From Burkholderiales bacterium (lineage in GTDB: Bacteria > Pseudomonadota > Gammaproteobacteria > Burkholderiales > Ga0077523): a stretch of 43,176 bases of DNA. Of the stretch, positions 1-19,485 are shown in pieces; within the stretch, counting starts at the first letter, position 1; each line of letters starts with the position of its first letter. The DNA is taken from NCBI GenBank assembly GCA_044370825.1, contig JBILUV010000001.1, forward strand, positions 1-43,176, written 5' to 3'. The notes beneath the pieces were generated by a model. It saw only the letters and a list, made by a program, of their open reading frames with translations, ran no database searches and was not told where the DNA came from. The translations under genes and the position numbers were made by a program.

Positions 1-1
1 T

Positions 2-1462: not shown

Positions 1463-1495
1463 TCCGATGCCCGCTGATACCACAGGCTCCCACCC

Positions 1496-2359: not shown

Positions 2360-3853
<1,494 letters not shown>

Positions 3854-3894
3854 CCGACGCCGCATCTGTACGCCACCATTGCCTCTGAGGGAAC

Positions 3895-5406: not shown

Positions 5407-6564
5407 ATGATCGAACGACTTGTCGCCGCATTTGCCACGGCAACGTTGTTGTCCGTCCCGTCCCTGACCGCCGCCAAGGACACCGTGCGTATCGTTTTCA
5501 TCGGCCCGCTGACGGGGGGAGTGGCGGCGAACGGCCTTGGCGGACGCAACTCCGTGGACCTGGCCGTGAAACTGCGCAACGCGGACCCCAGGGCCCGCTT
5601 TTCCTACGACTTGGTCGTGCTGGATGATGAGTGCAAACCCAATGTCGGGGTTCAGGTGGCGACGAAAGCGGCTTCCGACAACAGCATCATCGGTGGGGTG
5701 ACGCATTATTGTTCCACCGTCGCCATGGGCACCGTGGACGTATACCACCGCTTCGGGCTTCCTGTGATTATCTGGGGTGCCGTTCTCCCCGACGTTACCT
5801 ACGCCAATGACTACCGGGAGATCCACCGGGTCAACGGCACCATGATCAACCAGAACGAAACGGCAGCCCAGTTCATGACCGCCCAGAAGTTCAAGCGCTG
5901 GGCGATCGTGCACGACACTACCGACTACGGCAAAGGCCACAACAAGTACTTCGCCGAATACCTCCAGAAGAACGGTGGCCAGATACTGGGCAGCTTCGGT
6001 GTCACTGCGGACCAGCAGGATTTTTCGGCCGAGCTCACAAAGATCAAGGAGCTCAAACCCGAGGTGGTCTATTTCGGCGGCATCACGCCTCTCGGGGTGC
6101 GCGTTCGAAGCCAGATGGACAAGTTCGGGGTCAAGGCCGTCTTCCAGGGTACCTCCGGCATCATCTCCGATGCCTTTGTCGAGGGCCTCGGGCCGCTCGC
6201 TGAAGGGGTGGTGGCATTCCGCGAGGGTGCCCCTGCGGAGAAGCTGCCCGGCGGAAAGGCCTTCCTGGAGCAGTATGCGAAGGCGAAGTACAGCGATGAT
6301 CCGGAGGCGTACGGCCCGTTCGCCTTCGTTGCCGCAAACCTGCTGATGGATGCTATCGAGAAGTTCGGCCCTGATCGCAAGAAGGTGCGGGCCGAACTGA
6401 ACAAGACCCGTGATTATGAGTCCGTCGTCGGCCGCATCACTTTCGACGACCACCGACAGAATGCGGTGCCGGTCATCACCAAGTTCGTTGTTCAGGATGG
6501 GCGATGGATGGTCTGGGAGGACAGTGAATACGCCAAGGGCAAGCGCGCCCTGGTCCGGAAGTAA
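5407..6564 (+). CDS. ABC transporter substrate-binding protein, branched-chain amino acid (LivK/Peripla_BP_6) type
   Basis: Signal peptide (MIERLVAAFATATLLSVPSLTAAKD), then IGPLTGG and the overall LivK-like pattern. GAGGGAGAG lies upstream, and livHMGF-like genes follow. Confidence 0.88.
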   Translation: MIERLVAAFATATLLSVPSLTAAKDTVRIVFIGPLTGGVAANGLGGRNSVDLAVKLRNADPRARFSYDLVVLDDECKPNVGVQVATKAASDNSIIGGVTHYCSTVAMGTVDVYHRFGLPVIIWGAVLPDVTYANDYREIHRVNGTMINQNETAAQFMTAQKFKRWAIVHDTTDYGKGHNKYFAEYLQKNGGQILGSFGVTADQQDFSAELTKIKELKPEVVYFGGITPLGVRVRSQMDKFGVKAVFQGTSGIISDAFVEGLGPLAEGVVAFREGAPAEKLPGGKAFLEQYAKAKYSDDPEAYGPFAFVAANLLMDAIEKFGPDRKKVRAELNKTRDYESVVGRITFDDHRQNAVPVITKFVVQDGRWMVWEDSEYAKGKRALVRK

Positions 6565-6573
6565 TCTGCCGCC

Positions 6574-7491
6574 ATGGATATCGCGCTGCTCGCGCAGCAC
6601 GTCCTTAATGGCGCCATGCTGGGGGTGATCTACGCGCTTGTGGCGGTGGGTTTCACGCTGTTCTTCGGGGTGCTCGACGTCATCAAGTTCTCCCATGGCG
6701 ATGTGGTCATGCTGGGTGCCTTCGTCGCCCTTGCCACGTCCGTCGGTCTGTCCGGGCAGGCTTTCCCCGCCGCCGTCACCCTTGCCGCGATGCTCGTGAT
6801 CTCGGTGATCGCCATGGGTGTGGTAGGCGCTCTGCTCGCCCGCTTCCTCGTCCTCCCCCTGCGCAGGGCCCCCACGCTCAACGTGCTGCTCATCACCTTG
6901 ATGGCTGGCACGGTCATACGGGAAGCTGTACGTCTGTTCTATCCCCAGGGCTCCAACCCCAAGCCTTTCCCCCGCCTGCTGCCAGGTGGGGCCTGGGAGT
7001 TCGGCCAGTTCACCCTGAGACACGACAGCGCGATCCTTCTCGTGCTCGGCGTGGCGGCGATCGTCACGGTACACATCCTGATCCGTCACACCCGCCTGGG
7101 GCTGGCCATCCGCGCCGTCGCCCAGGACGCAGAGACGGCGTCGACCATGGGAATCCCGTTTCAGCGCACGGTGCTCGCCACCTTTGCCATCGGGTCCGCG
7201 CTCGCCGCGCTCGCGGGTGTGGTCAACGGCCTCTACTACAGCGAGGTTAGCTTCAACATGGGCCTGCTGTTGGGTGCCATCGGGTTCTCGGCTGCGGTGA
7301 TCGGCGGCCTGGGCAATGTCTACGGCGCGATCCTTGGGGGCTTCATCTTCGCAGGACTGCAGACGGTGGGGGCGGTGGCCTTGCCCATCGCCAGTGCTTA
7401 CAAGGATGTGTTTGCCTTTGGTGCCGTGATCGTCCTCATGGCACTGAAGCCGGGCGGCCTGCTGGTCGAGCGATCGGCCGAGCGGGTCTGA
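6574..7491 (+). CDS. Branched-chain amino acid ABC transporter permease (LivH-like)
   Basis: Polytopic hydrophobic 305-aa ORF with LivH-like motifs (LNGAMLGVIYALVAVGFTLFFG, FSHGDVVMLGAF). Confidence 0.88.
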   Translation: MDIALLAQHVLNGAMLGVIYALVAVGFTLFFGVLDVIKFSHGDVVMLGAFVALATSVGLSGQAFPAAVTLAAMLVISVIAMGVVGALLARFLVLPLRRAPTLNVLLITLMAGTVIREAVRLFYPQGSNPKPFPRLLPGGAWEFGQFTLRHDSAILLVLGVAAIVTVHILIRHTRLGLAIRAVAQDAETASTMGIPFQRTVLATFAIGSALAALAGVVNGLYYSEVSFNMGLLLGAIGFSAAVIGGLGNVYGAILGGFIFAGLQTVGAVALPIASAYKDVFAFGAVIVLMALKPGGLLVERSAERV

Positions 7492-7506
7492 GAGGCCTTA
7501 CGACCT

Positions 7507-8646
7507 ATGAGTACGATCCTGCCTGCGCTCGCCGCAATCCTCGGAGCCGCCCTCGCGATACTCGGCCTCATGCTCGCGGACAAGCAGTGGGAAGTCGCCG
7601 CAGTGGCGGTCGCCTGTGTCGCAGTGGTCCTGATGGCTGGACGCCTGGGTTGGACGGAGCGCGTGCACCGATCCGCTGGCCGACACGGTCTCGTCGCCAA
7701 CGCGCTGGCGTGGAGCACTGCTGCGGTCGTCATCTTCCTGCTACGTGAACACAACTTCGAATTGCTGATGCTGTGCACCGTGATGCTCTACATGGTGGCG
7801 GGCCTCGGACTCACGGTGCAGTTCGGATTCGCCGGCGTCGTCAATTTCGCCGCAGCGGCGTTTCTCGGAGTCGGGGCCTACTGCGCGGCAGTGCTGCTGA
7901 CATCCAGTCCCCTTCCGCCATTGCTCGTCGTTCTCGTTGCCGGTCTGGTGAGCGCCTTGGTGGGTTCGGTCCTGCTCTTGCCTCTGTTGCGCACCCGCGG
8001 CCACTACGCGGCTCTCATCACGATCGCCTTCGGCATCCTGTTCCGGACCTTCCTCGAGGTCAATGACGCGCTTGGCGGACCGCAGGGCCTGAAGGTTCCG
8101 GGCATGCGGCTCGCAGGTGTCGATTTCAACAGCGCCATCGAGATCGGCGACGAGACAGAGTGGTCGTTCTATCTCCAATACGCCGGCCTGTGTCTCGCGG
8201 TGTTGTTCCTGGCCACGATGCTGGTTCGTCGCCTCGAGCGCTCCTGGCTGGGACTGTCGATGGATGCGGTGCGTCTGGACGAAACCGCAGCTGCCGCGTT
8301 CGGCCTCAATGCCGCTGCCTGGAAGATCGTAGCCTTCTCCGCGGGCAATTTCCTCGCCGGCATCGCCGGAGCGCTCTATGCCATGCTATCGGGATTCATC
8401 GCCCCGGCTAGCTTCACTTTTGGCGACTCGCTGATCCTGGTATCCATTGTCATCCTTGGCGGGCTCGGCAATCCCCTGGGCCTGCTGCCGGCGGCGCTCA
8501 TCGTGGTCGTCCTCCCCGAGAAGTTGCAGGTTATCCAGGAATACCGTTTCCTGCTGTTCGCGGCACTTGTGATAGGTATCCTCCTGCTGAGACCTGGCGG
8601 CCTGCTGCCCCGCCGCCCCCGCCAATATTTCAGGAACCCGGGATGA
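7507..8646 (+). CDS. Branched-chain amino acid ABC transporter permease (LivM-like)
   Basis: Hydrophobic 379-aa ORF with a LivM-like core (GLGLTVQFGFAGVVNFAAAAFLGVGAY). Its stop overlaps the next start (ATGA). Confidence 0.86.
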   Translation: MSTILPALAAILGAALAILGLMLADKQWEVAAVAVACVAVVLMAGRLGWTERVHRSAGRHGLVANALAWSTAAVVIFLLREHNFELLMLCTVMLYMVAGLGLTVQFGFAGVVNFAAAAFLGVGAYCAAVLLTSSPLPPLLVVLVAGLVSALVGSVLLLPLLRTRGHYAALITIAFGILFRTFLEVNDALGGPQGLKVPGMRLAGVDFNSAIEIGDETEWSFYLQYAGLCLAVLFLATMLVRRLERSWLGLSMDAVRLDETAAAAFGLNAAAWKIVAFSAGNFLAGIAGALYAMLSGFIAPASFTFGDSLILVSIVILGGLGNPLGLLPAALIVVVLPEKLQVIQEYRFLLFAALVIGILLLRPGGLLPRRPRQYFRNPG

Positions 8647-9425
8647 GCGGCGAACCACTTCTCGTAGCGGCCAGCCTGTCGGTCAGGTTTGGCGGTGTCC
8701 GGGCTCTCGATGGCTTGAACCTGAGCATCGATGAAGGCGAGATGCTCGGCCTGATCGGGCCCAATGGTTCCGGCAAAACCACTTTCTTCAACACCGTGAC
8801 CGGCTTCGTCGTCCCGGCCGGCGGGAGCATCCGCTTCGCGGGCGAGGATCTTACGGGGATGATCCCGCGCAAAGTGGCGCGTCGCGGTATTGCGCGTACC
8901 TTCCAGCGTCTGCGTTTGTTGCTCGAACTTTCGGTATTCGACAACCTCATGCTCGGTCTGCACCTCTCGCTGGATCACGGCGTCTGGAGCAACCTGCTGT
9001 TCCGCAGGGGACTGCGCCAGAGCATCGATCGGTACACCACGATCGCCAGGGACCTCCTGGCCCAGTTCAGCCCGGCCCTGCCCGATCGCCTGTTCGAACC
9101 GGCGGGTGCCCTGACCATGATCGATCGGCGCCGTGTCGAGGTCTGCCGGGCACTGATCCGCGAACCGAGACTGTTGCTTCTGGATGAGCCGTCCGCCGGA
9201 ATGACGCCTGACGAGACGCATGAACTCATGCGTGATCTGCTGCGTGTGAAGGCTGGCCGTCCAGCCCTTGCCGTGGTCCTGATCGAGCACGACATGACCG
9301 TCATCGAGAGTGTTGCCCAGCGCTGCGCTGTACTCGATTACGGACGCAAGCTCTGCGAGGGCAGCTACGCGCAGGTGACTGCAGATCCCGAAGTGCGACG
9401 CGCCTACCTGGGGCTTGAGGAATGA
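8643..9425 (+). CDS. ABC transporter ATP-binding protein (LivG-like)
   Basis: Walker A GPNGSGKTT, LLLDEPSAGM, and ATGA start/stop overlaps on both sides. Confidence 0.9.
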   Translation: MSGEPLLVAASLSVRFGGVRALDGLNLSIDEGEMLGLIGPNGSGKTTFFNTVTGFVVPAGGSIRFAGEDLTGMIPRKVARRGIARTFQRLRLLLELSVFDNLMLGLHLSLDHGVWSNLLFRRGLRQSIDRYTTIARDLLAQFSPALPDRLFEPAGALTMIDRRRVEVCRALIREPRLLLLDEPSAGMTPDETHELMRDLLRVKAGRPALAVVLIEHDMTVIESVAQRCAVLDYGRKLCEGSYAQVTADPEVRRAYLGLEE

Positions 9426-10159
9426 CTTCTGCGCTCGGACTCGAGGTCCGCGGCATCCGGGTGGGCTACGACCGGGTCGACGTGCTTCAGGATGTGTCCC
9501 TGTTGGCCCACCCGGGAGAGATCACCTGCCTGCTGGGTGCCAACGGATCCGGCAAGACTACGCTGGTGCGGGCTGTTCTCGGCCTGACGCCACCGCGCGA
9601 AGGTGAAATCCTGCTGGGGAGCAGTAGGATCTCGGGTATGCCCACCCACCAGATCGTGGGACTCGGCATCGGTGCCATTCCAGAGGGGCGGCGGGTCTTT
9701 CCGAAGCTCACGGTCGAGGAGAACCTGCGGACGGGCGCCTACCTAGTCGCTGATCGGGAACTTGTCGGCCAGCGCATGGTGAACGTGTACGAGACCTTCC
9801 CCCGCCTGCGGGAGCGTGCGTCACAGCTGGCGGGTACCCTGTCCGGGGGCGAGCAGGCGATGCTGTCCATCGGGCGCGGGTTGATGGGCTCACCGGGACT
9901 GCTGATCATCGACGAGCCCTCGCTGGGCCTGTCACCGAAGTTCGTGAAGGAGAACTTCCAGGTCATACGTCGCATCAACGAATCGGGCGTCTCCGTCCTG
10001 CTCGTCGAGCAGAACGTGCACCAGACTCTCGAGGTCTCCCATCGCGGCTATCTGCTCTCCGGGGGCCGGGTCGTGGCGTCGGGCACAGCGGCCGAGCTGA
10101 AGCGCCACCCGGAGCTTGTGGCTGCGTATTTTGGAGACACTCAGACGCCGGGAAGCTGA
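9422..10159 (+). CDS. ABC transporter ATP-binding protein (LivF-like)
   Basis: Walker A GANGSGKTT, signature LSGGEQ, Walker B LLIIDEPS. Confidence 0.9.
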   Translation: MTSALGLEVRGIRVGYDRVDVLQDVSLLAHPGEITCLLGANGSGKTTLVRAVLGLTPPREGEILLGSSRISGMPTHQIVGLGIGAIPEGRRVFPKLTVEENLRTGAYLVADRELVGQRMVNVYETFPRLRERASQLAGTLSGGEQAMLSIGRGLMGSPGLLIIDEPSLGLSPKFVKENFQVIRRINESGVSVLLVEQNVHQTLEVSHRGYLLSGGRVVASGTAAELKRHPELVAAYFGDTQTPGS

Positions 10160-10240
10160 CTTCCGCGGTTGCGCAGGTTCTGCGCGTTCCAGTCCCGGTG
10201 CGCCGCTATACTCGGCGGATATTTTCAGGACACTACATCC

Positions 10241-11368
10241 ATGGCTGCCATCGATCCCCTGAGGCTCACCCAGGAGCTGCTCACCTTCAATACGATCAAC
10301 CCGCCTGGCGCGGAGGAACCCTGCGCACGGCATATCGGCGCCTTGCTGGAGGCGGTCGGGTACCGGGTGACATATCACGGCTTCGGTTCTGGCCGAGCCA
10401 ATCTGGTCGCGACCATTGGCGGCAGCGACGAGATCGCCCCGATCTGTTTCACCGGGCACATCGACATCGTCCCTCTTGGAGCCAAGCCCTGGAGCCATGA
10501 TCCGTTCGCGGGAGAGACCGATGGCGGGAGAATGTACGGGCGCGGGTCCAGTGACATGAAGGCAGGGGTGGCGGCTTTCGTGGCTGCGGCAGTCGAACTG
10601 GCGCCTCATCTGGCGCGCTCTCCCGGGGTGTCCATCGTCATCACCGCTGGCGAGGAGACTGGCTGCCAGGGCGCCTTCGACCTCGTCTCCAAACCCGGTG
10701 CACTCGGGCGCGCGGGTGCGATCGTGGTGGCCGAGCCCACCGGCAACTTTCCCTACGTCGGCCATCGGGGCGCCTACTGGCTGCAGGCCCGCACCAGCGG
10801 CATCACCGCGCATGGCTCGATGCCCGAAAAAGGTGTCAATGCCGTGTACAAGGCCGCCCGAGCCGTCACCTGCCTGGAGCATTTTCACTTCTCCACGCCG
10901 CCGCACGCCATGATGGGCCAGGGAACGCTGAACGTCGGTACCCTCAGCGGGGGGCTCAACATCAACTCCGTTCCTGATCAGGCCGTCATTGGTATCGACA
11001 TGCGCACTGTCCCGACCCAGAGTCATGCGCATATCAGGGAGGAACTCGGGCACGTTCTGGGGCCGGAGGTACAACTCGAGACGCTGCTGGACGTGGCTGC
11101 GGTCTACACGGAACCGCAGGAAGCCTGGGTGCAGAGCGTATTCGACGTGATGGCCCCTTATCTCGGCAGCCGACCCGAGCCCCGGACGGCGACGTATTTC
11201 ACCGACGCCGCGGCCCTGAAGCCGGCTCTCGGCAACCCACCGACCTTGATCCTTGGCCCCGGTGAGCCGCACATGGCGCACCAGACAGATGAGTACTGCG
11301 AGACCGAGCGGGTAAAGGCCGCGACCCAGGCGTTCCTGCGCATCATGCAGGACTGGTGTCGCGCCTGA
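10241..11368 (+). CDS. M20 family metallopeptidase / deacylase (ArgE/DapE-like)
   Basis: Motifs GHIDIVP...W..DPF and GRGSSDMKAG are typical of the ArgE/DapE/CPG2 M20 family. I chose the internal ATG 10241 (MAAIDPLRLTQELL) over the longer ORF start at 10169. Confidence 0.82.
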   Translation: MAAIDPLRLTQELLTFNTINPPGAEEPCARHIGALLEAVGYRVTYHGFGSGRANLVATIGGSDEIAPICFTGHIDIVPLGAKPWSHDPFAGETDGGRMYGRGSSDMKAGVAAFVAAAVELAPHLARSPGVSIVITAGEETGCQGAFDLVSKPGALGRAGAIVVAEPTGNFPYVGHRGAYWLQARTSGITAHGSMPEKGVNAVYKAARAVTCLEHFHFSTPPHAMMGQGTLNVGTLSGGLNINSVPDQAVIGIDMRTVPTQSHAHIREELGHVLGPEVQLETLLDVAAVYTEPQEAWVQSVFDVMAPYLGSRPEPRTATYFTDAAALKPALGNPPTLILGPGEPHMAHQTDEYCETERVKAATQAFLRIMQDWCRA

Positions 11369-11552
11369 GTCCGAGCGCTTTAAGCCTCATGCCGGACCGA
11401 GCGCGATGTCCATGACGCCCGGCTTTCCGGTCGATTGCTTCCGCACCCGGGCGCACCGATCGGGGACGACGCTCGTCGACCCGCGGATTGCCGCGATCGG
11501 CACGGGCTCACGCTTTGGACACATGCTCCCGTTTGTCTGCATGAGTTAGACC

Positions 11553-12863
11553 GTGTCCCGATCCTTCCTCGCCGGCCTTTCGGGCGAGCGCCTGTGGGAT
11601 CTTGCAGGCGACACGTGGCCGCTTTCCACCGCCCGGGCCTTGCGGCCTGCGGCAGCCATCGCGGTACGCGGCCTCATCCATGGTCATCGCGTTGTCCTGG
11701 CGGCGACTGACCCGGCCGTGGCATCGGGCGCCATCGGTGGCGCCGAGGCTGAAGTCCTGGCCGTCGCCGTTGACGAGGCGATGGAGCACCGCCTGCCGCT
11801 CATCCTGCTCATCGATTCCGCTGGTGCTCTTCTCACCGAAGGGGTGGTCGTACTGGGTGCCTTCCGCCGGTTGCTCCGCAGCATGCTGGTCGCGCGCAGT
11901 CAGGGTCTGCCGACTCTCGCGGTGTTTGGGCGGAATTGTTTCGGCGGAGCCAGCCTTCTCGCGTTTGCGGCGGATACCAGGATCTATCCTCAGGGCTGTC
12001 GCCTCGGTCTGTCGGGGCCCCGAGCGCTGCGTTCCCTGGACGCTGGCCCGGAGACCGATACAGCGGTCCTTACACTCTATGGCGCCGAAAGCCGATGCCG
12101 TCATGACGAAGACGGTGTGATAGTGAGTGATGACTCTTCTGCGGTCGCCGCTCTTGTTCGCGCATGGCTTGCAGAGGCCGTGAGCAGGCCCCCTGCAGCG
12201 ACGTCAGCCACCGAGAGCCGCCTTGCCCGTCGCCTGAGCCTCTACAGGGGTGATCCGAGCAGTCTGTCCAGCACGAGCCCTCCGCCAGACGTCGGTACAC
12301 GGTTGGATCAATGGTTTCCCGGAGGTTGGACTGCCGCCTACAGCGACGGCGTGGTCTGGGGCGAGTGTTGGGCGGACGGGGGGGAGACTTGTTTCGCCGG
12401 TTTTGTGGCGGGGCGGCCTGTCGGCGCCTTCGCCTGCGTCCGGATGATGGAAATCCTGCGTGGTTTCGCCGATGAACCACCGATCCTGGGAGTCACCCTG
12501 CTGCTGGACAGCCCCGGCCAGATGGCAGACGTGGACAACGAGCAGATCCTGCTCAGCGAGTTCGTTGCGCGCGTGGCCGATCTTGTCCACGGGCTTGGTG
12601 CGGAGGGCCGACTTGTCGACCTTTGGCTGGTGGGCGAGGCGGGGGGCGCGATCTATCTGGCCCTGGCTGCTGCAGCGACACGCGTCACCGCCTGGCCGGG
12701 AATGCATATCCAGACCCTTCCGCCCCGCGTCGTGGATGGGGTCCTGGGGCAGCGTCAGGCTGCGAGTGCAACCCTGGAAGATCTGCTCGAGGCCAGGGTG
12801 ATCGACGGCTGGGCGTCGGCCCCCCGCATCGACTACGAACCCCGACCAGCCGAACGCGACTGA
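11553..12863 (+). CDS. Fused malonate decarboxylase beta (MdcD)-like and gamma (MdcE)-like carboxyltransferase
   Basis: From GTG 11553 the N-terminus (MSRSFLAGLSGERL) resembles the MdcD N-terminus. The N-terminal half shows the MdcD-like pattern (LLIDSAGALL, CFGGASLLAFAAD, LGLSGPRAL). The C-terminal half shows the MdcE-like pattern (LLLDSPGQ....EGRLVDLWLVGEAGGAIYLAL). This rests on recalled family resemblance, not a search. Confidence 0.7.
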   Translation: MSRSFLAGLSGERLWDLAGDTWPLSTARALRPAAAIAVRGLIHGHRVVLAATDPAVASGAIGGAEAEVLAVAVDEAMEHRLPLILLIDSAGALLTEGVVVLGAFRRLLRSMLVARSQGLPTLAVFGRNCFGGASLLAFAADTRIYPQGCRLGLSGPRALRSLDAGPETDTAVLTLYGAESRCRHDEDGVIVSDDSSAVAALVRAWLAEAVSRPPAATSATESRLARRLSLYRGDPSSLSSTSPPPDVGTRLDQWFPGGWTAAYSDGVVWGECWADGGETCFAGFVAGRPVGAFACVRMMEILRGFADEPPILGVTLLLDSPGQMADVDNEQILLSEFVARVADLVHGLGAEGRLVDLWLVGEAGGAIYLALAAAATRVTAWPGMHIQTLPPRVVDGVLGQRQAASATLEDLLEARVIDGWASAPRIDYEPRPAERD

Positions 12864-12894: not shown

Positions 12895-14397
12895 ATGAAC
12901 CGCAATCTCTACACTTTGCTGGAAAGCCGTTTCCCGCCCCCGGACACCCCGCTTCTAGAGACCGAGGAAGGTGTCGTCCATACCTATGGTGATCTGGCTG
13001 GCCTGTCGGCCAGGATGGCCGCAGTCCTGGCCGCGTGCGGCGCTGTCCCCGGCGACCGCATCGCCGCGCAAGTGGAGAAATCCCCTGCGGCGCTGGCTCT
13101 GTATCTGGCCTGCCTGCGCGGAGGCTTTGTCTATCTGCCGCTGAACACCGCCTACCAGCCGCCCGAGGTGTCGTACTTCCTTGGGGATGCCGAACCCAGT
13201 GTCTTCGTGTGCCGTCCCGAGAGCGTCGAGGCCCTCGAGCCGCGCGCGCGCGAGTCCGGCGTCGCAACCGTGCTGACCCTTGACGCCTCAGGTCGAGGCA
13301 CTCTGGCCGACGAGGCGCGGGCCGCCCCAGATGATCAGTCGATCCATCTCGCCGGAGCGGACGACCTCGCCATCATCATCTACACGTCTGGGACGACGGG
13401 ACGATCCAAAGGGGCGATGCTGACCCACGGCAGTCTTGCCGCCAATGGCGAGGCCCTGCGCAGAGCCTGGGCCTTCGAGGCTGGTGATGTGCTGCTCCAC
13501 CAGTTACCCCTGTTCCACGTGCATGGGCTGTTCATCTCGACACACTGTGTGCTCTTGAGCGGAGCCCGGATGTTGTTCCACCGCAGGTTTGACAGCGCCT
13601 TGGCCGTGGCGAGTCTGCCGCGCTGCAGTGTCATGATGGGCGTTCCCACCTATTACACGCGCCTGTTGGCGGAGCCCGGATTCACCCGCAACAGCGCGGC
13701 CAGCGTCCGTCTGTTCGTTTCGGGCTCGGCGCCCCTGCTGCTCGAGACCTTCCGCGAGTTCGAGGCGCGCATCGGACAGCGCATCCTGGAGCGCTACGGC
13801 ATGAGCGAGGCAGGCGTCATCACGACAAATCCCCTGGGCGGGATTCGCAAGGGAGGAACGGTCGGCCAGCCTCTCGAGGGGATGGACGTCCGAGTGACGT
13901 CATCCGAGGACGTGCCCCTGCCGGCGGGCGAACCGGGCGGGGTACAGATCCGTGGAGAGAGTGTCTTCCAGGGGTACTGGCGCATGCCGGAGAAGACGCA
14001 GGAGGAATTCACCAGCGACGGCTGGTTCCGCACTGGGGATGTCGGCGTGATCGATGAGGAGGGCTACCTGTCCATCGTCGGACGGGCCAAGGACCTGATC
14101 ATCAGTGGTGGCTTCAACGTTTATCCCAAGGAGATCGAGCTCGAACTCGACGCCTGGCCCGGCGTCGTCGAGTCTGCCGTCATCGGCATACCCCACCCTG
14201 ATTTCGGCGAGGCGGTGACGGCAGTGGTGGTACTGACAGCAGGAGCGTTTCTGAACGAGGCGGGGGTCCTCGCTGCGCTTCGAGCGCGGCTCGCCAATTA
14301 CAAGGTCCCCAAACGCATACACGTGGTGCCTGACCTTCCGCGGAATGCGATGGGCAAGGTCCAGAAGAACGTGTTGCGGGAGCGCTTCGCGCCGTAG
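12895..14397 (+). CDS. matB: Malonyl-CoA synthetase (MatB-type AMP-forming acyl-CoA ligase)
   Basis: AMP-binding motif IIYTSGTTGRSKGAMLTHG and a strong resemblance to rhizobial MatB (GDRIAAQVEKSPAALALYLACLRGGFVYLPLNTAY, YFLGDAEP, GKVQKNVLRE). Confidence 0.85.
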   Translation: MNRNLYTLLESRFPPPDTPLLETEEGVVHTYGDLAGLSARMAAVLAACGAVPGDRIAAQVEKSPAALALYLACLRGGFVYLPLNTAYQPPEVSYFLGDAEPSVFVCRPESVEALEPRARESGVATVLTLDASGRGTLADEARAAPDDQSIHLAGADDLAIIIYTSGTTGRSKGAMLTHGSLAANGEALRRAWAFEAGDVLLHQLPLFHVHGLFISTHCVLLSGARMLFHRRFDSALAVASLPRCSVMMGVPTYYTRLLAEPGFTRNSAASVRLFVSGSAPLLLETFREFEARIGQRILERYGMSEAGVITTNPLGGIRKGGTVGQPLEGMDVRVTSSEDVPLPAGEPGGVQIRGESVFQGYWRMPEKTQEEFTSDGWFRTGDVGVIDEEGYLSIVGRAKDLIISGGFNVYPKEIELELDAWPGVVESAVIGIPHPDFGEAVTAVVVLTAGAFLNEAGVLAALRARLANYKVPKRIHVVPDLPRNAMGKVQKNVLRERFAP

Positions 14398-15308: not shown

Positions 15309-16508
15309 TCAGGCCACGGCTCGCGGCAGCGCCGAGGGGCGCTTCGACTCGGTCAGGAAATCCAGCGCCGCTCGAACACCTTCCCGGACGATTGGCACGC
15401 CGCCCAGGACGAGACCCATCTCCACCCCCGCCAGGGTGCCGGCCAGGGTGAGGTCATTGAAGTCGCCCAGATGTCCGACGCGGAACACACTGCCGGCGAG
15501 TCTGCCCAGTCCGGTGCCCAGAGAGAGGTCGAAGTGGTCGAGGATCAGGGCCCGCACCCGATCGGCATCGTGCCCTGCCGGAAGCACGACCGCCGTCAGT
15601 GAACTGCTGTACTCGGCTGGGTTGGCACACAGTACCTTGAGACCCCAGGCGCGAACGGCGCGCCGGGTCGCCTCGGCATGGCGGTCGTGACGCGCAAACA
15701 CGTTCTCCAGCCCCTCCTCCATGAGCATGACGATGGCCTCCCGCAGTCCGTAGAGGAGATTGGTGGCGGGCGTGTAGGGGAACCACCCCGACTGATTGGA
15801 GGCGAGCATCTCCTCCCATGACCAATAAGATCGAGGCAGCCGCGCCGCCGCGGACGCAGCCATCGCCTTGCGGCCGATGGCATTGAACGACAGCCCCGGG
15901 GGAAGCATCAGGCCCTTCTGGGAGCCGGCCACGGTGACGTCCACGCCCCATTCATCATGTCGGTAGTCGATCGAGCCGAGCGACGAGATGGTGTCGACCA
16001 TGAACAGGGCCGGGTGGCCGGCGGTGTCGATGGCACGGCGGACGTCCGGAATGCGGGAGATCGCACCCGTGGAGGTCTCGTTGTGCACCACGCATACGGC
16101 CTTGATGGCATGCGCGGCATCCTCGGACAGACGCGCACCGATGGCCTCGGGGTCTGCGCCATGCCGCCAGTCGCCCGGCAGGAACTCGACCTCGAGACCG
16201 AGCCGGGCTGCGAGCTTCCGCCACAGGCTGGCGAAGTGTCCGGTCTCGACCATCAACACCCTGTCGCCAGGCGACAGGGTGTTCACCAGAGCGGCCTCCC
16301 AGGCACCGGTTCCGGAGGCAGGGTAGATAACCACGGGGCCGCGGGTCCCGAAGATGGGCTTGAGTCCGTCGAGGACTTCGCGTGCGAGGCGATTGAATTC
16401 GGGGCCGCGGTGGTCGATAGTCGGCCGGTCCATGGCACGCAGGATCCGGTCCGGCACGTTGGTCGGCCCTGGAATCTGCAGGAAATGGCGGCCTGCGCGA
16501 TGTGCCAT
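15309..16508 (-). CDS. Class V aminotransferase, serine--glyoxylate aminotransferase (SgaA)-like
   Basis: Close resemblance to methylotroph SgaA (PGPTNVPDRILRAM, VHNETSTGA, AGSQKGLMLPPGL with the PLP lysine, FRVGHLGD). I chose ATG at 16508, preceded by GAGGAG. The longer ORF (to 16640) adds a non-homologous leader. Confidence 0.88.
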   Translation of the reverse strand: MAHRAGRHFLQIPGPTNVPDRILRAMDRPTIDHRGPEFNRLAREVLDGLKPIFGTRGPVVIYPASGTGAWEAALVNTLSPGDRVLMVETGHFASLWRKLAARLGLEVEFLPGDWRHGADPEAIGARLSEDAAHAIKAVCVVHNETSTGAISRIPDVRRAIDTAGHPALFMVDTISSLGSIDYRHDEWGVDVTVAGSQKGLMLPPGLSFNAIGRKAMAASAAARLPRSYWSWEEMLASNQSGWFPYTPATNLLYGLREAIVMLMEEGLENVFARHDRHAEATRRAVRAWGLKVLCANPAEYSSSLTAVVLPAGHDADRVRALILDHFDLSLGTGLGRLAGSVFRVGHLGDFNDLTLAGTLAGVEMGLVLGGVPIVREGVRAALDFLTESKRPSALPRAVA

Positions 16509-16563
16509 GGGGTACTCCTCAAACGAGTCCAGTGAACGGCTGCAGAGTATCATTCCCCCAGTC

Positions 16564-19485
16564 ATGAACGCACCGCATCCCATCGTCCGCTCGAGGCGAC
16601 CCGGAGATCCCGCCCTGGCCGGACGCCTGCGCGGCGCCATCGAGGGTGATGTGCTGTTCGATGCGTCCAGCCGTGGACGCTATTCGACCGACGCCTCGAT
16701 CTATCAGGTGGAGCCCCTCGGCGTCGTGGTTCCGCGAACCGATGCGGATGTCGAAGCGGTGCTGGAGATCGCCCGCGATCAGGGAGTGCCCGTGTTGCCG
16801 CGGGGAGCGGGCACCTCCCAGTGCGGGCAGACGGTGGGTGAGGCGATCGTGATCGATACCTCCCGTCACCTGAACCGTCTGGTCCGGCTGGACGAGGAGG
16901 CGCGCACCGCAGTTGTGGAACCCGGCATCGTTCTGGACCACCTGAACGCTGCCCTCAGGCGCAGCGGCCTCTGGTATCCGGTTGATGTGTCGACCTCCGC
17001 GCAGGCCACGCTGGGCGGCATGGCGGGCAACAATTCCTGCGGTGCCCGTTCCATACGTTACGGCAACATGGTGCACAACGTCCTGGGCGTCGATGCCTGG
17101 CTGGCCGATGGCAGCGAGTGCCACTTCGGTCCTGCGGAGCAGGTCGCGTCCGGATCGTTCCGGTACCGCGAACTCGTCCATGCCATCCACGCCATCGCGC
17201 AGCGGGAGGCCGCAGAGATCGAGGCGCGCTGGCCACGGGTGATGCGGCGGGTGCAGGGCTACAACCTCGACATGATGCAGCCGCATCTGCCGCACAATCT
17301 CGCGCATCTGCTCGTCGGTTCCGAGGGGACGCTGGCCTGGTTTCGCCGCCTGCACCTGAAGCTTGCCCCGCTGCCCAGACACAAGGTTCTGGGAGTCGCG
17401 CACTTCCCCAGCTTTCACCGCGCCATGGAGCTCACCCAGGAGATCGTCCGGCTCGATCCGGACGCGGTGGAGCTCGTGGACCGCACCATGATCTCGCTGG
17501 CTCGGGAGCACGACGAGTTCCGGCCGGTGGTCGAGCGGTTCTTCGTGGGCCAGCCGGATGCGATCCTGCTGGTCGAGTTCGCAGGCGAGGATCGCGACGC
17601 TCTGGTCACCAGGCTTGCGCGACTGGACGAGTTGCTCGGGGATCTCGGTCTTCCCGGCGCGCTGGTCCAGGTCACGGATGCGGCCCAGCAGCGCAGTCTG
17701 TGGGAGGTGCGAAAGGCCGGGCTGAACATCATGATGTCCATGAAGGGCGACGGCAAACCTGTGTCCTTCATCGAGGACTGCGCCGTGCCCCTGGAACATC
17801 TGGCCGAGTACACGCGCGCCATCGACGAGGTGTTCGCCCGCCACGGTACCCGTGGCACGTGGTACGCCCATGCCTCGGTTGGGACGCTGCACGTCCGTCC
17901 CGTGCTGGACATGCGCCGTGACGGCGCGCGGAAGATGCGCGCCATCGCCGAGGAAGCCTGCGCCCTGGTGCGCCGGTTCAAGGGAGCCTACTCGGGCGAG
18001 CACGGCGATGGTCTGGTGCGCTCCGAATGGATCGAGCCCATCCTCGGTGAAAGGCTCACGCGTGCGCTCGGGGAGATCAAGGATCTGTTCGACCCGGGAA
18101 ACCTGTTCAATCCCGGCAAGATCGTGCGCCCGCCGCGCATGGACGACCGCAGCCTGTTCCGCTACAAGCCGGGATACGCCTTGAAGTCTCCGCCCACCGC
18201 CCTGGACTGGTCGGAATGGGGTGGGATCGGCGGTGCGGTGGAGATGTGCAACAACAATGGCCACTGCCGCAAGTTCGACGCCGGGACGATGTGTCCGTCG
18301 TACCGGGTGACGCGTGAGGAGCGGCACCTCACCCGTGGCAGGGCCAATACCCTCCGGCTGGCCCTGTCCGGCCAGCTCGGGAGCGACAGCGAATCTGCCG
18401 GCGCCCTGGCAGAGGCGATGTCCCTCTGCGTGGGCTGCAAGGGATGCAAACGGGAATGCCCCACCGGGGTGGACATGGCCCGGCTCAAGCTCGAGTGGCG
18501 CCACTGGCAGCACCTTGCGCAGGGAGCGGGGTTGCGCGATCGCCTCGTGGCACACCTGCCCCGATATGCACCCCTGGCAGCGCGTCTGTCCTGGCTGGTC
18601 AACACGCCGAGTTGGTTGCCCGGCGCGGCCACACTGCTCGAGCGCCTCACCGGGTTGTCGGCGCAGCGCCCGCTTCCACGCTGGCGCGCAGACGTCTTTC
18701 GTGACCACGAGATACCGGGCCGGGATGCGTCCGGCGACCGGACGCCGGTGGTCCTGCTGGCCGACACGTTCAACCGCTACTTCGAACCCGAGAACCTGCG
18801 CGCCGCGGTCCGGGTGCTGGATGCGCTGTCCTATGCCGTCGAGCCTGCGCGCGACGCCGATGGCGGGAGGCCGCTTTGCTGTGGCAGGACTTATCTCGCG
18901 GTCGGCATGGTGGACGAGGCCAGGGCCGAGGCGCGACGGCTGCTGCGGGCGCTGCAGCCTGCCATCGAGCGTGGTCTCCCGGTGGTGGGCCTGGAGCCCT
19001 CCTGCCTGTTCACGTTGCGTGACGAATACCGGGTACTGGGCCTCGGGGCTGCAGCGGACGCACTGGCTAAACAAGCACTCACTTTCGAGGAATTTCTTTC
19101 GGCCGAAGCCAGGAGCGGCAAGTTGAAGGCCGCATTCCAGGCTCTGCCGCGGCCTGCTGTCCTGCATGGGCATTGTCACCAGAAGGCCTTCGGCGCTTTC
19201 GAGGCGGTGCGCGAGGTCCTCGGCCTCGTGCCGCAATTGCAGGTCTCGGTGGTTGAGTCGGGCTGCTGCGGCATGGCGGGCAGTTTCGGTTACGAGGCCG
19301 AGCATGTCGCGGTTTCACGGGCGATGGGTGAGCTCTCACTTTTACCCGCGGTGCGCGCCAGCAAAGAGGACGCGCTGGTGATCGCGGACGGCACCAGCTG
19401 TCGCCACCAGATCAGGGACGGCACCGGTCGCGCGGCCCTGCATGTCGCGCGCGTGCTCGAACTGGCTTTGCCCGCGACCGCCTGA
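16564..19485 (+). CDS. ydiJ: FAD-binding oxidase fused to an Fe-S (CCG/4Fe-4S) domain, YdiJ-like 2-hydroxyacid dehydrogenase
   Basis: N-terminal FAD-PCMH domain (VVPRTDADVEAVLEIARDQGVPVLPRGAGTSQCGQ), a GlcD-like middle, and Cys clusters (CVGCKGCKRECP, CCGMAGSFG). The architecture matches E. coli YdiJ. I chose ATG 16564 so the gene does not overlap the divergent aminotransferase. Confidence 0.85.
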   Translation: MNAPHPIVRSRRPGDPALAGRLRGAIEGDVLFDASSRGRYSTDASIYQVEPLGVVVPRTDADVEAVLEIARDQGVPVLPRGAGTSQCGQTVGEAIVIDTSRHLNRLVRLDEEARTAVVEPGIVLDHLNAALRRSGLWYPVDVSTSAQATLGGMAGNNSCGARSIRYGNMVHNVLGVDAWLADGSECHFGPAEQVASGSFRYRELVHAIHAIAQREAAEIEARWPRVMRRVQGYNLDMMQPHLPHNLAHLLVGSEGTLAWFRRLHLKLAPLPRHKVLGVAHFPSFHRAMELTQEIVRLDPDAVELVDRTMISLAREHDEFRPVVERFFVGQPDAILLVEFAGEDRDALVTRLARLDELLGDLGLPGALVQVTDAAQQRSLWEVRKAGLNIMMSMKGDGKPVSFIEDCAVPLEHLAEYTRAIDEVFARHGTRGTWYAHASVGTLHVRPVLDMRRDGARKMRAIAEEACALVRRFKGAYSGEHGDGLVRSEWIEPILGERLTRALGEIKDLFDPGNLFNPGKIVRPPRMDDRSLFRYKPGYALKSPPTALDWSEWGGIGGAVEMCNNNGHCRKFDAGTMCPSYRVTREERHLTRGRANTLRLALSGQLGSDSESAGALAEAMSLCVGCKGCKRECPTGVDMARLKLEWRHWQHLAQGAGLRDRLVAHLPRYAPLAARLSWLVNTPSWLPGAATLLERLTGLSAQRPLPRWRADVFRDHEIPGRDASGDRTPVVLLADTFNRYFEPENLRAAVRVLDALSYAVEPARDADGGRPLCCGRTYLAVGMVDEARAEARRLLRALQPAIERGLPVVGLEPSCLFTLRDEYRVLGLGAAADALAKQALTFEEFLSAEARSGKLKAAFQALPRPAVLHGHCHQKAFGAFEAVREVLGLVPQLQVSVVESGCCGMAGSFGYEAEHVAVSRAMGELSLLPAVRASKEDALVIADGTSCRHQIRDGTGRAALHVARVLELALPATA

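What the first reader, a model, noticed from the sequence alone, without database searches (positions are those of the whole stretch)
11553..12863. Orphan single-polypeptide MdcD-MdcE fusion next to MatB, with no MdcA, MdcC (ACP) or holo-ACP synthesis genes nearby
In biotin-independent malonate decarboxylase, the separate beta (MdcD) and gamma (MdcE) subunits decarboxylate malonyl-S-ACP. They depend on MdcA, the MdcC carrier protein and the MdcB/G/H accessory proteins. Here both carboxyltransferase-like halves are fused into one 436-aa ORF joined by a Ser/Pro/Ala-rich linker. The only malonate-related neighbour is MatB, which makes malonyl-CoA. This suggests a carrier-protein-independent malonyl-CoA decarboxylase that is not homologous to MatA/MCD. 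If so, it would functionally replace matA in a mat-like module.
Basis: partly seen in the sequence, partly recalled or inferred. Interest (0 to 1): 0.65.

Follow-up and report, generated by a model that had tools for sequence, protein, structure and literature searches.

The report
Fused MdcDE-like decarboxylase beside MatB
A lake-water betaproteobacterium carries a short, single-chain relative of the two decarboxylase subunits of malonate decarboxylase that is always encoded directly before, and sometimes fused to, malonyl-CoA synthetase MatB, so it most likely turns malonyl-CoA into acetyl-CoA without any carrier protein, an undescribed but not radically new way of using malonate.

Summary
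ORF 11553-12863 (436 aa) is a real gene with an MdcD-like half and an MdcE-like half. A true MatB follows 32 nt downstream, and the 43 kb window has no mdcA, mdcC, mdcB/G/H or matA.

The protein belongs to an unnamed family of about 165 representatives, found here only in uncultured Betaproteobacteria. It aligns end to end with canonical fused MdcD-MdcE proteins at 22% identity. Those proteins sit in ordinary mdcA-mdcC operons, so the fusion itself is not new.

What is new is the partnership:
- MatB lies directly downstream in 61 of 61 related loci.
- Two lineages carry natural in-frame fusions of this protein to MatB.
- One layout (GntR | fusion-MatB-TRAP transporter) mirrors a classic mat operon, with the fusion in matA's place.
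- P. aeruginosa MdcD-MdcE is published to decarboxylate free malonyl-CoA.

The complication is that 16 of 18 Usitatibacter-type operons also encode MatA straight after MatB. 'Replaces MatA' is therefore not universal, and a different or broader substrate cannot be excluded.

Verdict: a probable carrier-independent malonyl-CoA decarboxylase, a new variant of a known kind. Nothing has been tested biochemically.

The parts
11553..12863 (+). Fused MdcD-like/MdcE-like carboxyltransferase-fold protein ('FUS'), 436 aa, GTG start
   Evidence: ORF. Pfam PF01039 plus PF06833. 79 homologue clusters. hhalign to canonical fused MdcD-MdcE: probability 100%, 420 collinear columns. AlphaFold2 pLDDT 91.7, pTM 0.92.
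11658..12173 (+). N-terminal (MdcD-like) domain, residues 36-207. It carries the first oxyanion-hole motifs D88-S-A-G-A92 (11814-11828) and N-C129-F-G-G132-A-S (11934-11954), and R150-L-G-L-S-G-P.
   Evidence: Pfam. Family-invariant columns. Alignment of MdcD (5vip_B) with P0169 plus hhalign places MdcD V121, G162 and R180 opposite A92, G132 and R150. The CFGG motif is shared with MdcD, whereas the one biotin-dependent CT seen aligned here, S. coelicolor PccB, has CAGG. On a per-domain basis the best solved-structure hit is MdcD (77.9 bits).
12183..12302 (+). Inter-domain connector, residues about 211-250, S/P/A-rich but containing a conserved helix at 217-232
   Evidence: Alignment A1. AlphaFold2 secondary structure and pLDDT. 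It is collinear with the connector of canonical fused MdcD-MdcE.
12303..12863 (+). C-terminal (MdcE-like) domain, residues 251-436. Motifs: L-D319-S-P-G-Q323 (12507-12521), E330 (12540-12542) and G361-E-A-G-G365-A-I-Y368 (12633-12656).
   Evidence: Pfam MdcE at residues 307-389. Invariant D319, E330, G361, G365 and Y368. MdcE Q100 aligns with Q323 and MdcE S142 with G365. By sequence and by fold this half is about equally distant from MdcE and from the C domains of biotin-dependent carboxyltransferases.
12895..14397 (+). MatB, malonyl-CoA synthetase, 500 aa, 32 nt after the stop codon of FUS
   Evidence: NCBIfam NF005702, 753 bits against a cut-off of 558. 545 bits over the full length to R. 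palustris MatB 4FUQ. Adjacent to FUS in 61 of 61 loci and fused to it in P0102 and P0106.
10169..11368 (+). M20 (ArgE/DapE-family) deacylase. The true start is probably the ATG near 10241.
   Evidence: Pfam and NCBIfam. It is the immediate upstream neighbour of FUS in 28 of 57 loci.
5407..10159 (+). Liv-type ABC transporter: binding protein, two permeases and two ATPases
   Evidence: Pfam. Conserved upstream of M20-FUS-MatB in the M20-type loci.
11369..11552 (+). 184-nt spacer between M20 and FUS. It is 286 nt in the two closest relatives and under about 30 nt in most other M20-type loci. Its first 165 nt or so are roughly 75% conserved.
   Evidence: No promoter-like or Rfam match was found.
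15309..16640 (-). Class-V aminotransferase, closest to the aspartate-glyoxylate aminotransferase BhcA but below its cut-off
   Evidence: Pfam. NCBIfam 453 bits against a cut-off of 650. Its orthologue sits upstream of FUS in the FAD-oxidase-type operons.
16354..19485 (+). FAD-oxidase/4Fe-4S/CCG dehydrogenase, YdiJ-like, 1043 aa
   Evidence: Pfam. NCBIfam YdiJ model 525 bits against a cut-off of 1350. Its orthologue lies immediately upstream of FUS in 24 of 57 loci.

Best explanation
FUS is a carrier-protein-independent, biotin-independent malonyl-CoA decarboxylase. It descends from the MdcD-MdcE decarboxylase of malonate decarboxylase.

Proposed mechanism:
1. MatB activates malonate with ATP and CoA to give malonyl-CoA. 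This step rests on orthology to characterised MatB enzymes.
2. FUS binds the CoA thioester in the MdcD-like half. The thioester carbonyl sits in the oxyanion hole formed by the backbone NH groups of A92 and G132.
3. The MdcE-like half (D319, Q323, E330 and the G361-Y368 loop) closes the site.
4. FUS releases CO2, giving acetyl-CoA. Steps 2-4 are inferred.

The two halves are proposed to pack within one chain in the way MdcD and MdcE pack as a heterodimer. This is inferred and could not be checked against coordinates.

In the window the pair forms a module with a Liv-type ABC importer and an M20 deacylase. The malonate may therefore be released inside the cell from an imported N-malonyl or amide compound. 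This last point is a low-confidence inference.
For: Shown here:
- End-to-end homology to canonical fused MdcD-MdcE (hhalign probability 100%, E 6.4e-49, 420 columns).
- Conserved active-site positions. MdcD V121, G162 and R180 align with FUS A92, G132 and R150, and the CFGG motif is shared with MdcD. MdcE Q100 aligns with Q323.
- A confident compact model (pLDDT 91.7, pTM 0.92). Its two domains each match carboxyltransferase domains, but not in the same-chain arrangement of CT-beta subunits (TM about 0.42, rmsd 17-20 A).
- MatB lies directly downstream in 61 of 61 loci, often with overlapping or nearly abutting genes.
- Two independent natural FUS-MatB fusions, P0102 of 899 aa and P0106 of 939 aa, with clean junctions.
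- The layouts GntR | FUS-MatB-DctPQM (L067, L068) and GntR | FUS-MatB fusion (L071) match the classic matR/matA-matB/transporter layout, with FUS where matA would be.
- No MatA within 10 kb in 0 of 23 M20-type loci, the type to which the window belongs.
- No MdcA, ACP, BCCP or biotin carboxylase in the window or in any annotated homologue locus of this family.

From the literature:
- P. aeruginosa and A. calcoaceticus MdcD-MdcE decarboxylate free malonyl-CoA in vitro, with kcat 2.3 per s and K0.5 100 uM (PMC5534430).
Against: - In the Usitatibacter-type operons FUS, MatB and a canonical MatA (PF05292) are encoded in a row (16 of 18 such loci with enough sequence). There FUS keeps all invariant motifs. 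If FUS only decarboxylates malonyl-CoA, it is redundant in those operons.
- Scores against the MdcD and MdcE equivalog models are far below cut-off.
- The C half is no closer to MdcE than to the C domains of biotin-dependent carboxyltransferases.
- MdcE S142 is a Gly in FUS. MdcE Q100 is a His in three of the four subgroups.
- The published malonyl-CoA activity of MdcD-MdcE is weak, with kcat 14-fold below that of human MCD.
- The rest of the genome is unseen.
- There are no biochemical data, and the only expression evidence is one 132-nt metatranscriptome contig.
Confidence: 0.6

Rival explanations
1. FUS decarboxylates a different MatB product from the one MatA handles, or a broader range. 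Candidates are methylmalonyl-CoA or another 2-substituted malonyl-CoA, such as hydroxymalonyl-CoA (tartronyl-CoA) or aminomalonyl-CoA. Under this reading FUS and MatA are complementary rather than redundant, and FUS alone covers both jobs in operons that lack MatA.
For: - FUS-MatB-MatA co-occur in one operon in 16 of 18 FAD-oxidase-type loci, and the FUS motifs are intact there.
- In these operons FUS starts 8 nt after a YdiJ-like 2-hydroxyacid dehydrogenase. A BhcA-like glyoxylate-type aminotransferase is conserved alongside, and both are also present just downstream in the window. This hints at a substituted C3-dicarboxylate pathway.
- The residue aligned with MdcE Q100 differs between subgroups, Q or H.
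- MatB enzymes are known to accept methylmalonate as well. This comes from my own knowledge and was not tested here.
Against: - The MatB partner is a close, full-length orthologue of a bona fide malonyl-CoA synthetase.
- The GntR-FUS-MatB-TRAP layout is that of a plain malonate operon.
- Nothing in the sequence identifies a pocket for a 2-substituent.
- The residue aligned with the PccB specificity residue D422 is hydrophobic (L, V or I), as in MdcE and acetyl-CoA-type enzymes.
Confidence: 0.2
2. FUS is the carboxyltransferase component of a biotin-dependent system, such as a transcarboxylase or a Na+-pumping decarboxylase of the Malonomonas MadC/MadD kind. It would pass CO2 from malonyl-CoA to a biotin carrier encoded elsewhere.
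For: - By total score the best solved-structure matches are biotin-dependent carboxyltransferases: 12S at 99.6 bits and AccD6 at 91 bits. Foldseek gives E about 1e-21.
- The C half keeps the 'D-x-P-G ... E' and 'G-G-A-x-Y' motifs and a Gly at the position of PccB G419.
Against: - No BCCP, biotin carboxylase, membrane decarboxylase beta subunit or biotin ligase appears in the window or in any annotated related locus.
- The conserved partner is MatB alone, and it is even fused to FUS.
- On a per-domain basis the N half is closest to MdcD, and the whole protein is collinear with MdcD-MdcE.
- The predicted domain arrangement differs from that of CT-beta chains.
Confidence: 0.07
3. FUS is the decarboxylase of a conventional ACP-dependent malonate decarboxylase whose MdcA, MdcC, MdcB, MdcG and MdcH genes lie elsewhere in the genome.
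For: FUS is homologous to MdcD-MdcE, and only 43 kb of this genome is visible.
Against: - Across 61 loci from many species the gene is never next to mdcA or mdcC and always next to matB. Canonical fused MdcD-MdcE, by contrast, sits directly after mdcA-mdcC.
- FUS is about 100 residues shorter than canonical fused MdcD-MdcE and only 22% identical to it.
- Natural FUS-MatB fusions tie it to a CoA-based route.
Confidence: 0.05

Closest known systems
MdcD-MdcE, the beta and gamma subunits of biotin-independent malonate decarboxylase (P. aeruginosa, PDB 5VIP/5VIT/5VJ1; Maderbocus et al. 2017, PMC5534430)
   Same: Both have two carboxyltransferase (crotonase-type) domains. The oxyanion-hole positions, the CFGG motif and the R-L-G-L-x-G-P motif are shared, and MdcE Q100 aligns with Q323. 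Neither needs biotin. MdcD-MdcE is shown to decarboxylate free malonyl-CoA in vitro.
   Different: FUS is one chain of 436 aa rather than two subunits of about 280 aa each. It is about 22% identical to the canonical fused MdcD-MdcE proteins and falls far below the family cut-offs. It has no MdcA, MdcC ACP or holo-ACP genes nearby and is paired with MatB instead. MdcE S142 is replaced by Gly.
Canonical single-chain MdcD-MdcE fusions inside mdcA-mdcC operons (for example P0169, 533 aa, loci L072/L073)
   Same: The beta-then-gamma domain order in one polypeptide is the same, and so is the connector. The two align collinearly over 420 columns.
   Different: The canonical fusions score strongly on the MdcD and MdcE models (209 bits to 5vip_B; Pfam MdcE 190 bits). 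They are about 100 residues longer and follow MdcA and the ACP. FUS follows an M20 deacylase, a FAD-oxidase or a GntR regulator, and precedes MatB.
MatA / malonyl-CoA decarboxylase (MCD, PF05292) of the rhizobial matABC operon
   Same: The proposed reaction is the same (malonyl-CoA to acetyl-CoA plus CO2), and so is the operon partner, MatB. In L067 and L071 FUS sits where matA sits, next to a divergent GntR regulator and a dicarboxylate transporter.
   Different: There is no sequence or fold relationship. In Usitatibacter-type operons both proteins are present.
Biotin-dependent carboxyltransferases (transcarboxylase 12S, PccB, AccD5/AccD6, AccA-AccD, GcdA)
   Same: The two-domain fold is the same and both oxyanion-hole glycine motifs are present. 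These give the best Foldseek E-values (about 1e-21).
   Different: FUS is about 80-100 residues shorter. Its predicted domain packing differs (TM about 0.42). No biotin carrier or carboxylase partner is encoded nearby. FUS has the CFGG motif of MdcD rather than CAGG.

Membership tests
Biotin-independent malonate decarboxylase beta/gamma subunits (MdcD/MdcE) | Scores above the curated cut-offs of the MdcD and MdcE family models | tested here: not met
   NF005530 60.7 bits against 228. TIGR03133 56.7 against 278. TIGR03134 32.7 against 237. Only Pfam MdcE is marginally above its cut-off, 33.6 against 32.7.
Biotin-independent malonate decarboxylase beta/gamma subunits (MdcD/MdcE) | Homology over the whole length to MdcD followed by MdcE | tested here: met
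   hhalign against eight canonical fused MdcD-MdcE proteins: probability 100%, E 6.4e-49, columns 3-422 aligned to 32-497. The profile hits 5vip_B at 77.9 bits over nearly its full length. The C half alone is ambiguous.
Biotin-independent malonate decarboxylase beta/gamma subunits (MdcD/MdcE) | Encoded with MdcA, the MdcC ACP and the holo-ACP genes MdcB, MdcG and MdcH | tested here: not met
   None is found in the 43 kb window or in annotated related loci. The control protein P0169 does sit after MdcA and the ACP. The rest of the genome could not be searched.
Biotin-independent malonate decarboxylase beta/gamma subunits (MdcD/MdcE) | Active-site residues defined in the P. aeruginosa structure: backbone NH of MdcD V121 and G162, MdcD R180, and MdcE Q100 and S142 | tested here: inconclusive
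   V121, G162 and R180 align with A92, G132 and R150, and Q100 aligns with Q323. However, that position is His in other subgroups, and S142 aligns with the invariant G365.
Biotin-independent malonate decarboxylase beta/gamma subunits (MdcD/MdcE) | Decarboxylates a malonyl thioester without biotin | not testable with these tools
   This needs an enzyme assay.
MatA / MCD malonyl-CoA decarboxylase (PF05292, PF17408) | MCD fold and sequence | tested here: not met
   FUS has no PF05292 or PF17408 hit. Genuine MatA genes with these domains are found beside FUS-MatB in L003 and L066.
mat-type malonate utilisation module (regulator, decarboxylase, MatB, transporter) | A MatB orthologue adjacent to the decarboxylase gene | tested here: met
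   MatB scores 753 bits against a cut-off of 558 and 545 bits to 4FUQ. It is adjacent to FUS in 61 of 61 loci.
mat-type malonate utilisation module (regulator, decarboxylase, MatB, transporter) | A GntR-type regulator and a dicarboxylate transporter in the same cluster | tested here: inconclusive
   Both are present in L067 and L068 (GntR plus DctPQM), and GntR is present in L071. The window instead has a Liv-type ABC importer and no regulator next to the genes.
Biotin-dependent carboxyltransferase (AccA/AccD, PccB, 12S) | Two-domain carboxyltransferase fold with both Gly-rich oxyanion-hole motifs | tested here: met
   PF01039 hit. 12S at 99.6 bits and AccD6 at 91 bits. Foldseek E about 1e-21.
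Biotin-dependent carboxyltransferase (AccA/AccD, PccB, 12S) | Works with a biotin carboxyl carrier protein, usually encoded nearby, and adopts the CT-beta type quaternary arrangement | tested here: not met
   No BCCP or biotin carboxylase is found in the window or in related loci. The whole-chain superposition on CT-beta chains is poor, with TM about 0.42 and rmsd 17-20 A. The true oligomeric state is unknown.

The most novel reading that the evidence does not exclude
FUS is not a second malonyl-CoA decarboxylase. It is a natural decarboxylase for a 2-substituted malonyl-CoA, for example tartronyl-CoA to glycolyl-CoA, or aminomalonyl- or methylmalonyl-CoA. It would work with MatB in a so-far undescribed C3-dicarboxylate pathway that also uses the conserved YdiJ/GlcD-GlcF-like FAD/Fe-S dehydrogenase and the BhcA-like glyoxylate aminotransferase. 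This would explain why Usitatibacter-type operons keep both FUS and MatA.
Probability: 0.12. Interest if true: 0.8.

Novelty: new variant of a known kind. Interest (0 to 1): 0.55.

Why it matters
Two bacterial routes for malonate are in the textbooks: the ACP-based Mdc/Mad complexes, and the CoA-based MatB plus MatA pair. This family looks like a hybrid of the two. The decarboxylase of the first route has lost its carrier protein and transferase and has been wired, sometimes covalently, to the synthetase of the second.

If that is confirmed:
- It would be a clear case of non-orthologous displacement of MatA. The Usitatibacter operons, which hold both enzymes, could be the intermediate state.
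- It would give physiological meaning to the weak malonyl-CoA activity that Maderbocus et al. saw in MdcD-MdcE.
- It would put a name on roughly 165 representative clusters that are now labelled 'hypothetical' or mislabelled 'acetyl-CoA carboxylase alpha subunit'.
- It would provide a compact 436-aa biotin-free acyl-CoA decarboxylase scaffold, plus natural synthetase-decarboxylase fusions, for pathway engineering.

The conserved M20 deacylase and Liv importer also point to an unknown malonyl-conjugate as a carbon source in lake water.

Tried and rejected
- **My own ORF caller and clustering.** Some loci first appeared to hold giant FAD-oxidase-FUS ORFs of 800-1800 aa. Reading L030 showed an Arg-rich out-of-frame stretch between the two genes, so these are open-frame artefacts of high-GC DNA or assembly frameshifts. 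I replaced this approach with a tblastn census. Clusters c16 and c27 were opposite-strand shadows of MatA and FUS.
- **Assigning the C half to MdcE.** Sequence against the PDB and a separate AlphaFold2 model with Foldseek both failed. The C half is equally distant from MdcE and from carboxyltransferase C domains. Only the full-length profile-profile alignment settles the homology.
- **Testing the intramolecular MdcD-MdcE-like packing.** No model coordinates are returned, and 5VIP could not be superposed on the model. Only the indirect TM/rmsd argument remains.
- **Rfam, promoter and terminator scans.** Nothing was found in or around the M20-FUS spacer.
- **The 48-codon ORF in the spacer (11405-11550).** Read by eye against L074, it is much less conserved as protein than as DNA, so I do not call it a gene.
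- **RNA evidence.** Only one 132-nt metatranscriptome contig was found, which is too little to claim expression or co-transcription.
- **Literature.** No paper in the held library describes a MatB-coupled MdcD-MdcE-like enzyme. Absence from this library is not proof of absence.
- **Whole-genome search for mdc and matA genes.** This was not possible.
Full report
**1. What is in the sequence**

- Pfam finds a Carboxyl_trans domain at residues 36-207 (E 4.6e-14) and an MdcE domain at residues 307-389 (33.6 bits, just above the 32.7 cut-off).
- In NCBIfam the best models are the MdcD equivalogs, at 60.7 and 56.7 bits against cut-offs of 228 and 278. MdcE scores 32.7 against 237. AccD and MmdA follow.
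- The protein is therefore a distant relative of MdcD and MdcE, not an equivalog.
- The next gene, 12895-14397, starts 32 nt after the stop codon. It is a genuine MatB: 753 bits on the malonyl-CoA synthase model (cut-off 558) and 545 bits end to end with R. palustris MatB 4FUQ.

I annotated every coding-looking ORF of the 43 kb window. In order, the window holds:

- ATP synthase alpha, gamma, beta and epsilon subunits, then a class-II amidotransferase.
- A Liv-type ABC transporter, an M20 deacylase, FUS and MatB.
- A TPR protein and a class-V aminotransferase on the minus strand.
- A 1043-aa FAD/Fe-S/CCG dehydrogenase, a cupin, an ArsC-family protein and a beta-lactamase-fold protein.
- A phosphonate-type ABC system, an amidohydrolase, a dihydroxy-acid/6-phosphogluconate-type dehydratase (ILVD_EDD family), HPF, a GH57 enzyme and a methyltransferase.
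- A short-chain dehydrogenase, a PP-loop protein, an Opp-type ABC system with a second M20, and an HTH-aminotransferase.

There is no MdcA, MdcC, MdcB/G/H or MatA.

**2. The family**

- A word-indexed search found 79 clusters, nearly all 385-440 aa with both domains. The few that carry names are called 'hypothetical protein' or 'acetyl-CoA carboxylase alpha subunit', and come from Betaproteobacteria or Burkholderiales MAGs.
- An exhaustive profile search of 1.84 billion representatives gave 165 proteins at E up to 1e-30.
- A scan of one genome per GTDB species returned 61 loci. All are MAGs, mostly Usitatibacter/Usitatibacteraceae, Rhodocyclaceae and unclassified Burkholderiales. That scan used a single peptide pattern, so it is a sample and not a complete census.
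- The window's own sequence occurs in at least 20 lake-water metagenome runs.
- The family alignment has invariant D88, S89, G91 and A92, the motif G126-R-N-C-F-G-G-A-S134, then D319, E330, G361, G365, Y368 and D418.

**3. Relationship to MdcD and MdcE**

- A family profile against PDB sequences gives its highest summed scores to two-domain biotin-dependent carboxyltransferases (12S at 99.6 bits, AccD6 at 91 bits).
- Per domain, however, the best N-half match is MdcD. 5vip_B scores 77.9 bits covering residues 12-273, against 65-69 bits for 12S and AccD6.
- The C half alone is ambiguous. AccD6 scores 18.8, 12S 16.2 and MdcE 14.8-18.2 bits. A separate AlphaFold2 model of the C half with Foldseek finds only a generic carboxyltransferase domain.
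- The decisive comparison is profile against profile. Against eight canonical single-chain MdcD-MdcE proteins, the family aligns collinearly over 420 columns (3-422 to 32-497). Probability is 100%, E 6.4e-49 and identity 22%. The alignment includes the inter-domain connector and the 'F-P-x-G' start of the C half.
- One of those canonical fusions, P0169, lies directly after MdcA (PF16957) and the MdcC ACP (PF06857). A single-polypeptide MdcD-MdcE is therefore not unusual.

**4. Active site**

Maderbocus et al. 2017 (PMC5534430) report the following for the P. aeruginosa enzyme:

- The oxyanion hole is formed by the backbone amides of MdcD V121 and G162.
- MdcD R180 lies near the CoA pyrophosphate.
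- MdcE Q100 and S142 matter for catalysis.
- P. aeruginosa and A. calcoaceticus MdcD-MdcE decarboxylate free malonyl-CoA. kcat is 2.3 per s and K0.5 is 100 uM, with kcat 14-fold below that of human MCD.

Chaining the alignments with the family alignment gives these correspondences:

- 'E-T-G-G-V121-R-L' aligns with 'D88-S-A-G-A92-L-L'.
- 'G-C-F-G-G162' aligns with 'N-C129-F-G-G132'. In the PccB alignment the same position reads C-A-G-G.
- 'A-R180-L-G-L-N-G-P' aligns with 'C-R150-L-G-L-S-G-P'.
- In the C half, 'D-V-P-S-Q100-A-Y102' aligns with 'D319-S-P-G-Q323-M-A'. Here the Q is replaced by H in the other three subgroups.
- 'G-K-A-M-S142-G-A-F' aligns with 'G361-E-A-G-G365-A-I-Y368'. The Ser is a Gly, as in PccB G419.

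The machinery for stabilising a thioester enolate is present, but the MdcE-side residues are only partly kept.

**5. Structure**

- AlphaFold2 with the family alignment gives a confident, compact model (pLDDT 91.7, pTM 0.92).
- The S/P/A-rich 'linker' contains a helix at residues 217-232.
- Foldseek against the PDB returns two-domain CT-beta chains at E about 1e-21. TM is only about 0.42 and rmsd 17-20 A over more than 430 columns.
- Each domain therefore fits, but the two are not arranged as the N and C domains of one CT-beta chain are.
- This is what one would expect if the two halves pack like the active-site-forming MdcD-MdcE heterodimer. I could not superpose 5VIP, so that remains an inference.

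**6. Genomic context**

This is the main evidence. It comes from a tblastn census over the non-redundant loci and from Pfam-annotated loci.

- MatB lies within 0-350 nt downstream of FUS in 61 of 61 loci that have enough sequence.
- The immediate upstream neighbour falls into four layouts:

| Upstream neighbour | Loci (of 57) | Layout | MatA after MatB |
|---|---|---|---|
| M20 deacylase | 28 | Liv-type ABC transporter - M20 - FUS - MatB; includes the window and its 87%-identical relatives L074/L075 | 0 of 23 (none within 10 kb) |
| YdiJ-like FAD/Fe-S dehydrogenase | 24 | DctPQM and a BhcA-like aminotransferase on the opposite strand, then dehydrogenase - FUS - MatB - MatA | 16 of 18 (canonical PF05292 MatA) |
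| Divergent GntR/FCD regulator | 1 | L067 (L068, an identical layout, was excluded as redundant): GntR, FUS - MatB - DctPQM, the layout of a classic mat operon with FUS in matA's position | none within 10 kb |
| Other | 4 | Mostly the ATP synthase operon | none within 10 kb |

- The window combines two of these neighbourhoods. The aminotransferase (15309-16640, minus strand) and the dehydrogenase (16354-19485) lie just beyond MatB.
- Two representatives are natural triple fusions, P0102 (899 aa, in L071, with a divergent GntR upstream, Illumina coverage 102) and P0106 (939 aa, in L070).
- In both, the FUS C-terminus runs straight into the MatB N-terminus: '...GLADTISTLPVTA-MNANIFATFE...' and '...GAVDAIFGSGTERPSPANG-NRNFYAVV...'.

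**7. Interpretation**

The constant, sometimes covalent, FUS-MatB pairing, the absence of any carrier or transferase gene, the matA-like position in the GntR-type operon and the published malonyl-CoA activity of MdcD-MdcE together make a carrier-independent malonyl-CoA decarboxylase the best explanation. I put it at about 0.6.

- **Main objection.** The Usitatibacter-type operons encode both FUS and MatA, and the FUS motifs are intact there.
  - One reading is redundancy, a snapshot of non-orthologous displacement in progress.
  - The other is that FUS has a different or wider substrate range, such as methylmalonyl-CoA or another 2-substituted malonyl-CoA (about 0.2). The conserved 2-hydroxyacid dehydrogenase and glyoxylate-type aminotransferase hint at such a pathway, but I could not reconstruct it.
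- **Biotin-dependent role (about 0.07).** No carrier or carboxylase is encoded nearby in any locus.
- **Conventional Mdc system encoded elsewhere (about 0.05).** The context across 61 loci argues against it.
- **Source of the malonate.** The conserved Liv importer and M20 deacylase suggest malonate is released inside the cell from an imported malonyl conjugate. This is a low-confidence inference.

**8. Novelty**

Five full-text searches found no description of a MatB-coupled MdcD-MdcE-like enzyme. The fold, the chemistry and even the in-vitro activity on malonyl-CoA are known. What is new is the stand-alone, shortened, MatB-wired form and its restricted distribution in uncultured Betaproteobacteria. 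I rate it a new variant of a known kind, with interest about 0.55.

**9. Limits**

- There is no biochemistry.
- Only 43 kb of the genome is visible.
- The genome census depends on one peptide pattern and on MAG binning. A few bins are labelled Lysobacter, Acidobacteria or Nitrososphaera, which probably reflects mis-binning.
- Expression evidence is a single 132-nt metatranscriptome contig over the start codon.

Noticed in passing
window 41605-43116 (+): A 503-aa protein joins an N-terminal Cro/YdaS-type helix-turn-helix (residues 5-55) to a class-V aminotransferase domain. It resembles MocR/GabR-type regulators in concept, but with a different HTH and a different aminotransferase class.
   Followed up: no
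window 11369-11552; L074 7575-7860; L075 6811-7096: There is a 184-286 nt spacer between the M20 deacylase and FUS in the window and its two closest relatives only. Most other M20-type loci have under about 30 nt there. The first 165 nt or so are about 75% conserved. The spacer holds a 48-codon ORF (11405-11550) that ends 2 nt before the FUS start, but this ORF is poorly conserved as protein. No Rfam or promoter match was found.
   Followed up: partly
window 15309-19485; L065 5799-9992; L066 2270-6463: A BhcA-like class-V aminotransferase and a divergently transcribed YdiJ-like FAD/4Fe-4S/CCG dehydrogenase of about 960-1040 aa travel with FUS-MatB. They lie downstream in the window and immediately upstream in the Usitatibacter-type operons. 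Their link to malonate metabolism is unexplained.
   Followed up: partly
L003, L018, L020, L026, L030, L031, L033, L041-L047, L053, L056, L058, L061, L065, L066: These operons encode FUS, MatB and a canonical MatA (PF05292) in a row, next to a DctPQM TRAP transporter. They therefore hold two candidate malonyl-CoA decarboxylases.
   Followed up: yes
L070 1975-4794; L071 6001-8700: Natural single-ORF fusions of the MdcD-MdcE-like protein with MatB (939 and 899 aa) occur in two divergent lineages.
   Followed up: yes
L072 914-4785; L073 593-4464: Canonical malonate decarboxylase operons (MdcA, then the MdcC ACP) in which MdcD and MdcE are already fused into one 533-aa protein.
   Followed up: yes
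window 10169-10241: The listed TTG start of the M20 deacylase is probably too far upstream. Called homologues are 371-375 aa, an ATG ('MAAIDP') lies 24 codons in, and a terminator-like hairpin sits at 10201-10218, inside the extension.
   Followed up: no
window 1-4314, and L002, L069, L074: The FUS-MatB module sits just downstream of the F1 ATP synthase genes (atpA, atpG, atpD, atpC) in the window. The same is true in several only distantly related members of the family, which is an unexpectedly stable chromosomal position.
   Followed up: no
window 11536-11667: A single 132-nt contig from a freshwater metatranscriptome matches at 100% across the FUS start codon. This is a weak hint of transcription, and DNA carry-over is not excluded.
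   Followed up: partly
L030 7061-11170 and similar loci: In several high-GC MAG loci an open frame runs from the FAD-oxidase gene through out-of-frame Arg-rich sequence into FUS. This mimics giant fusion ORFs of 800-1800 aa. It is an artefact of sparse stop codons or assembly frameshifts, not a real fusion.
   Followed up: yes
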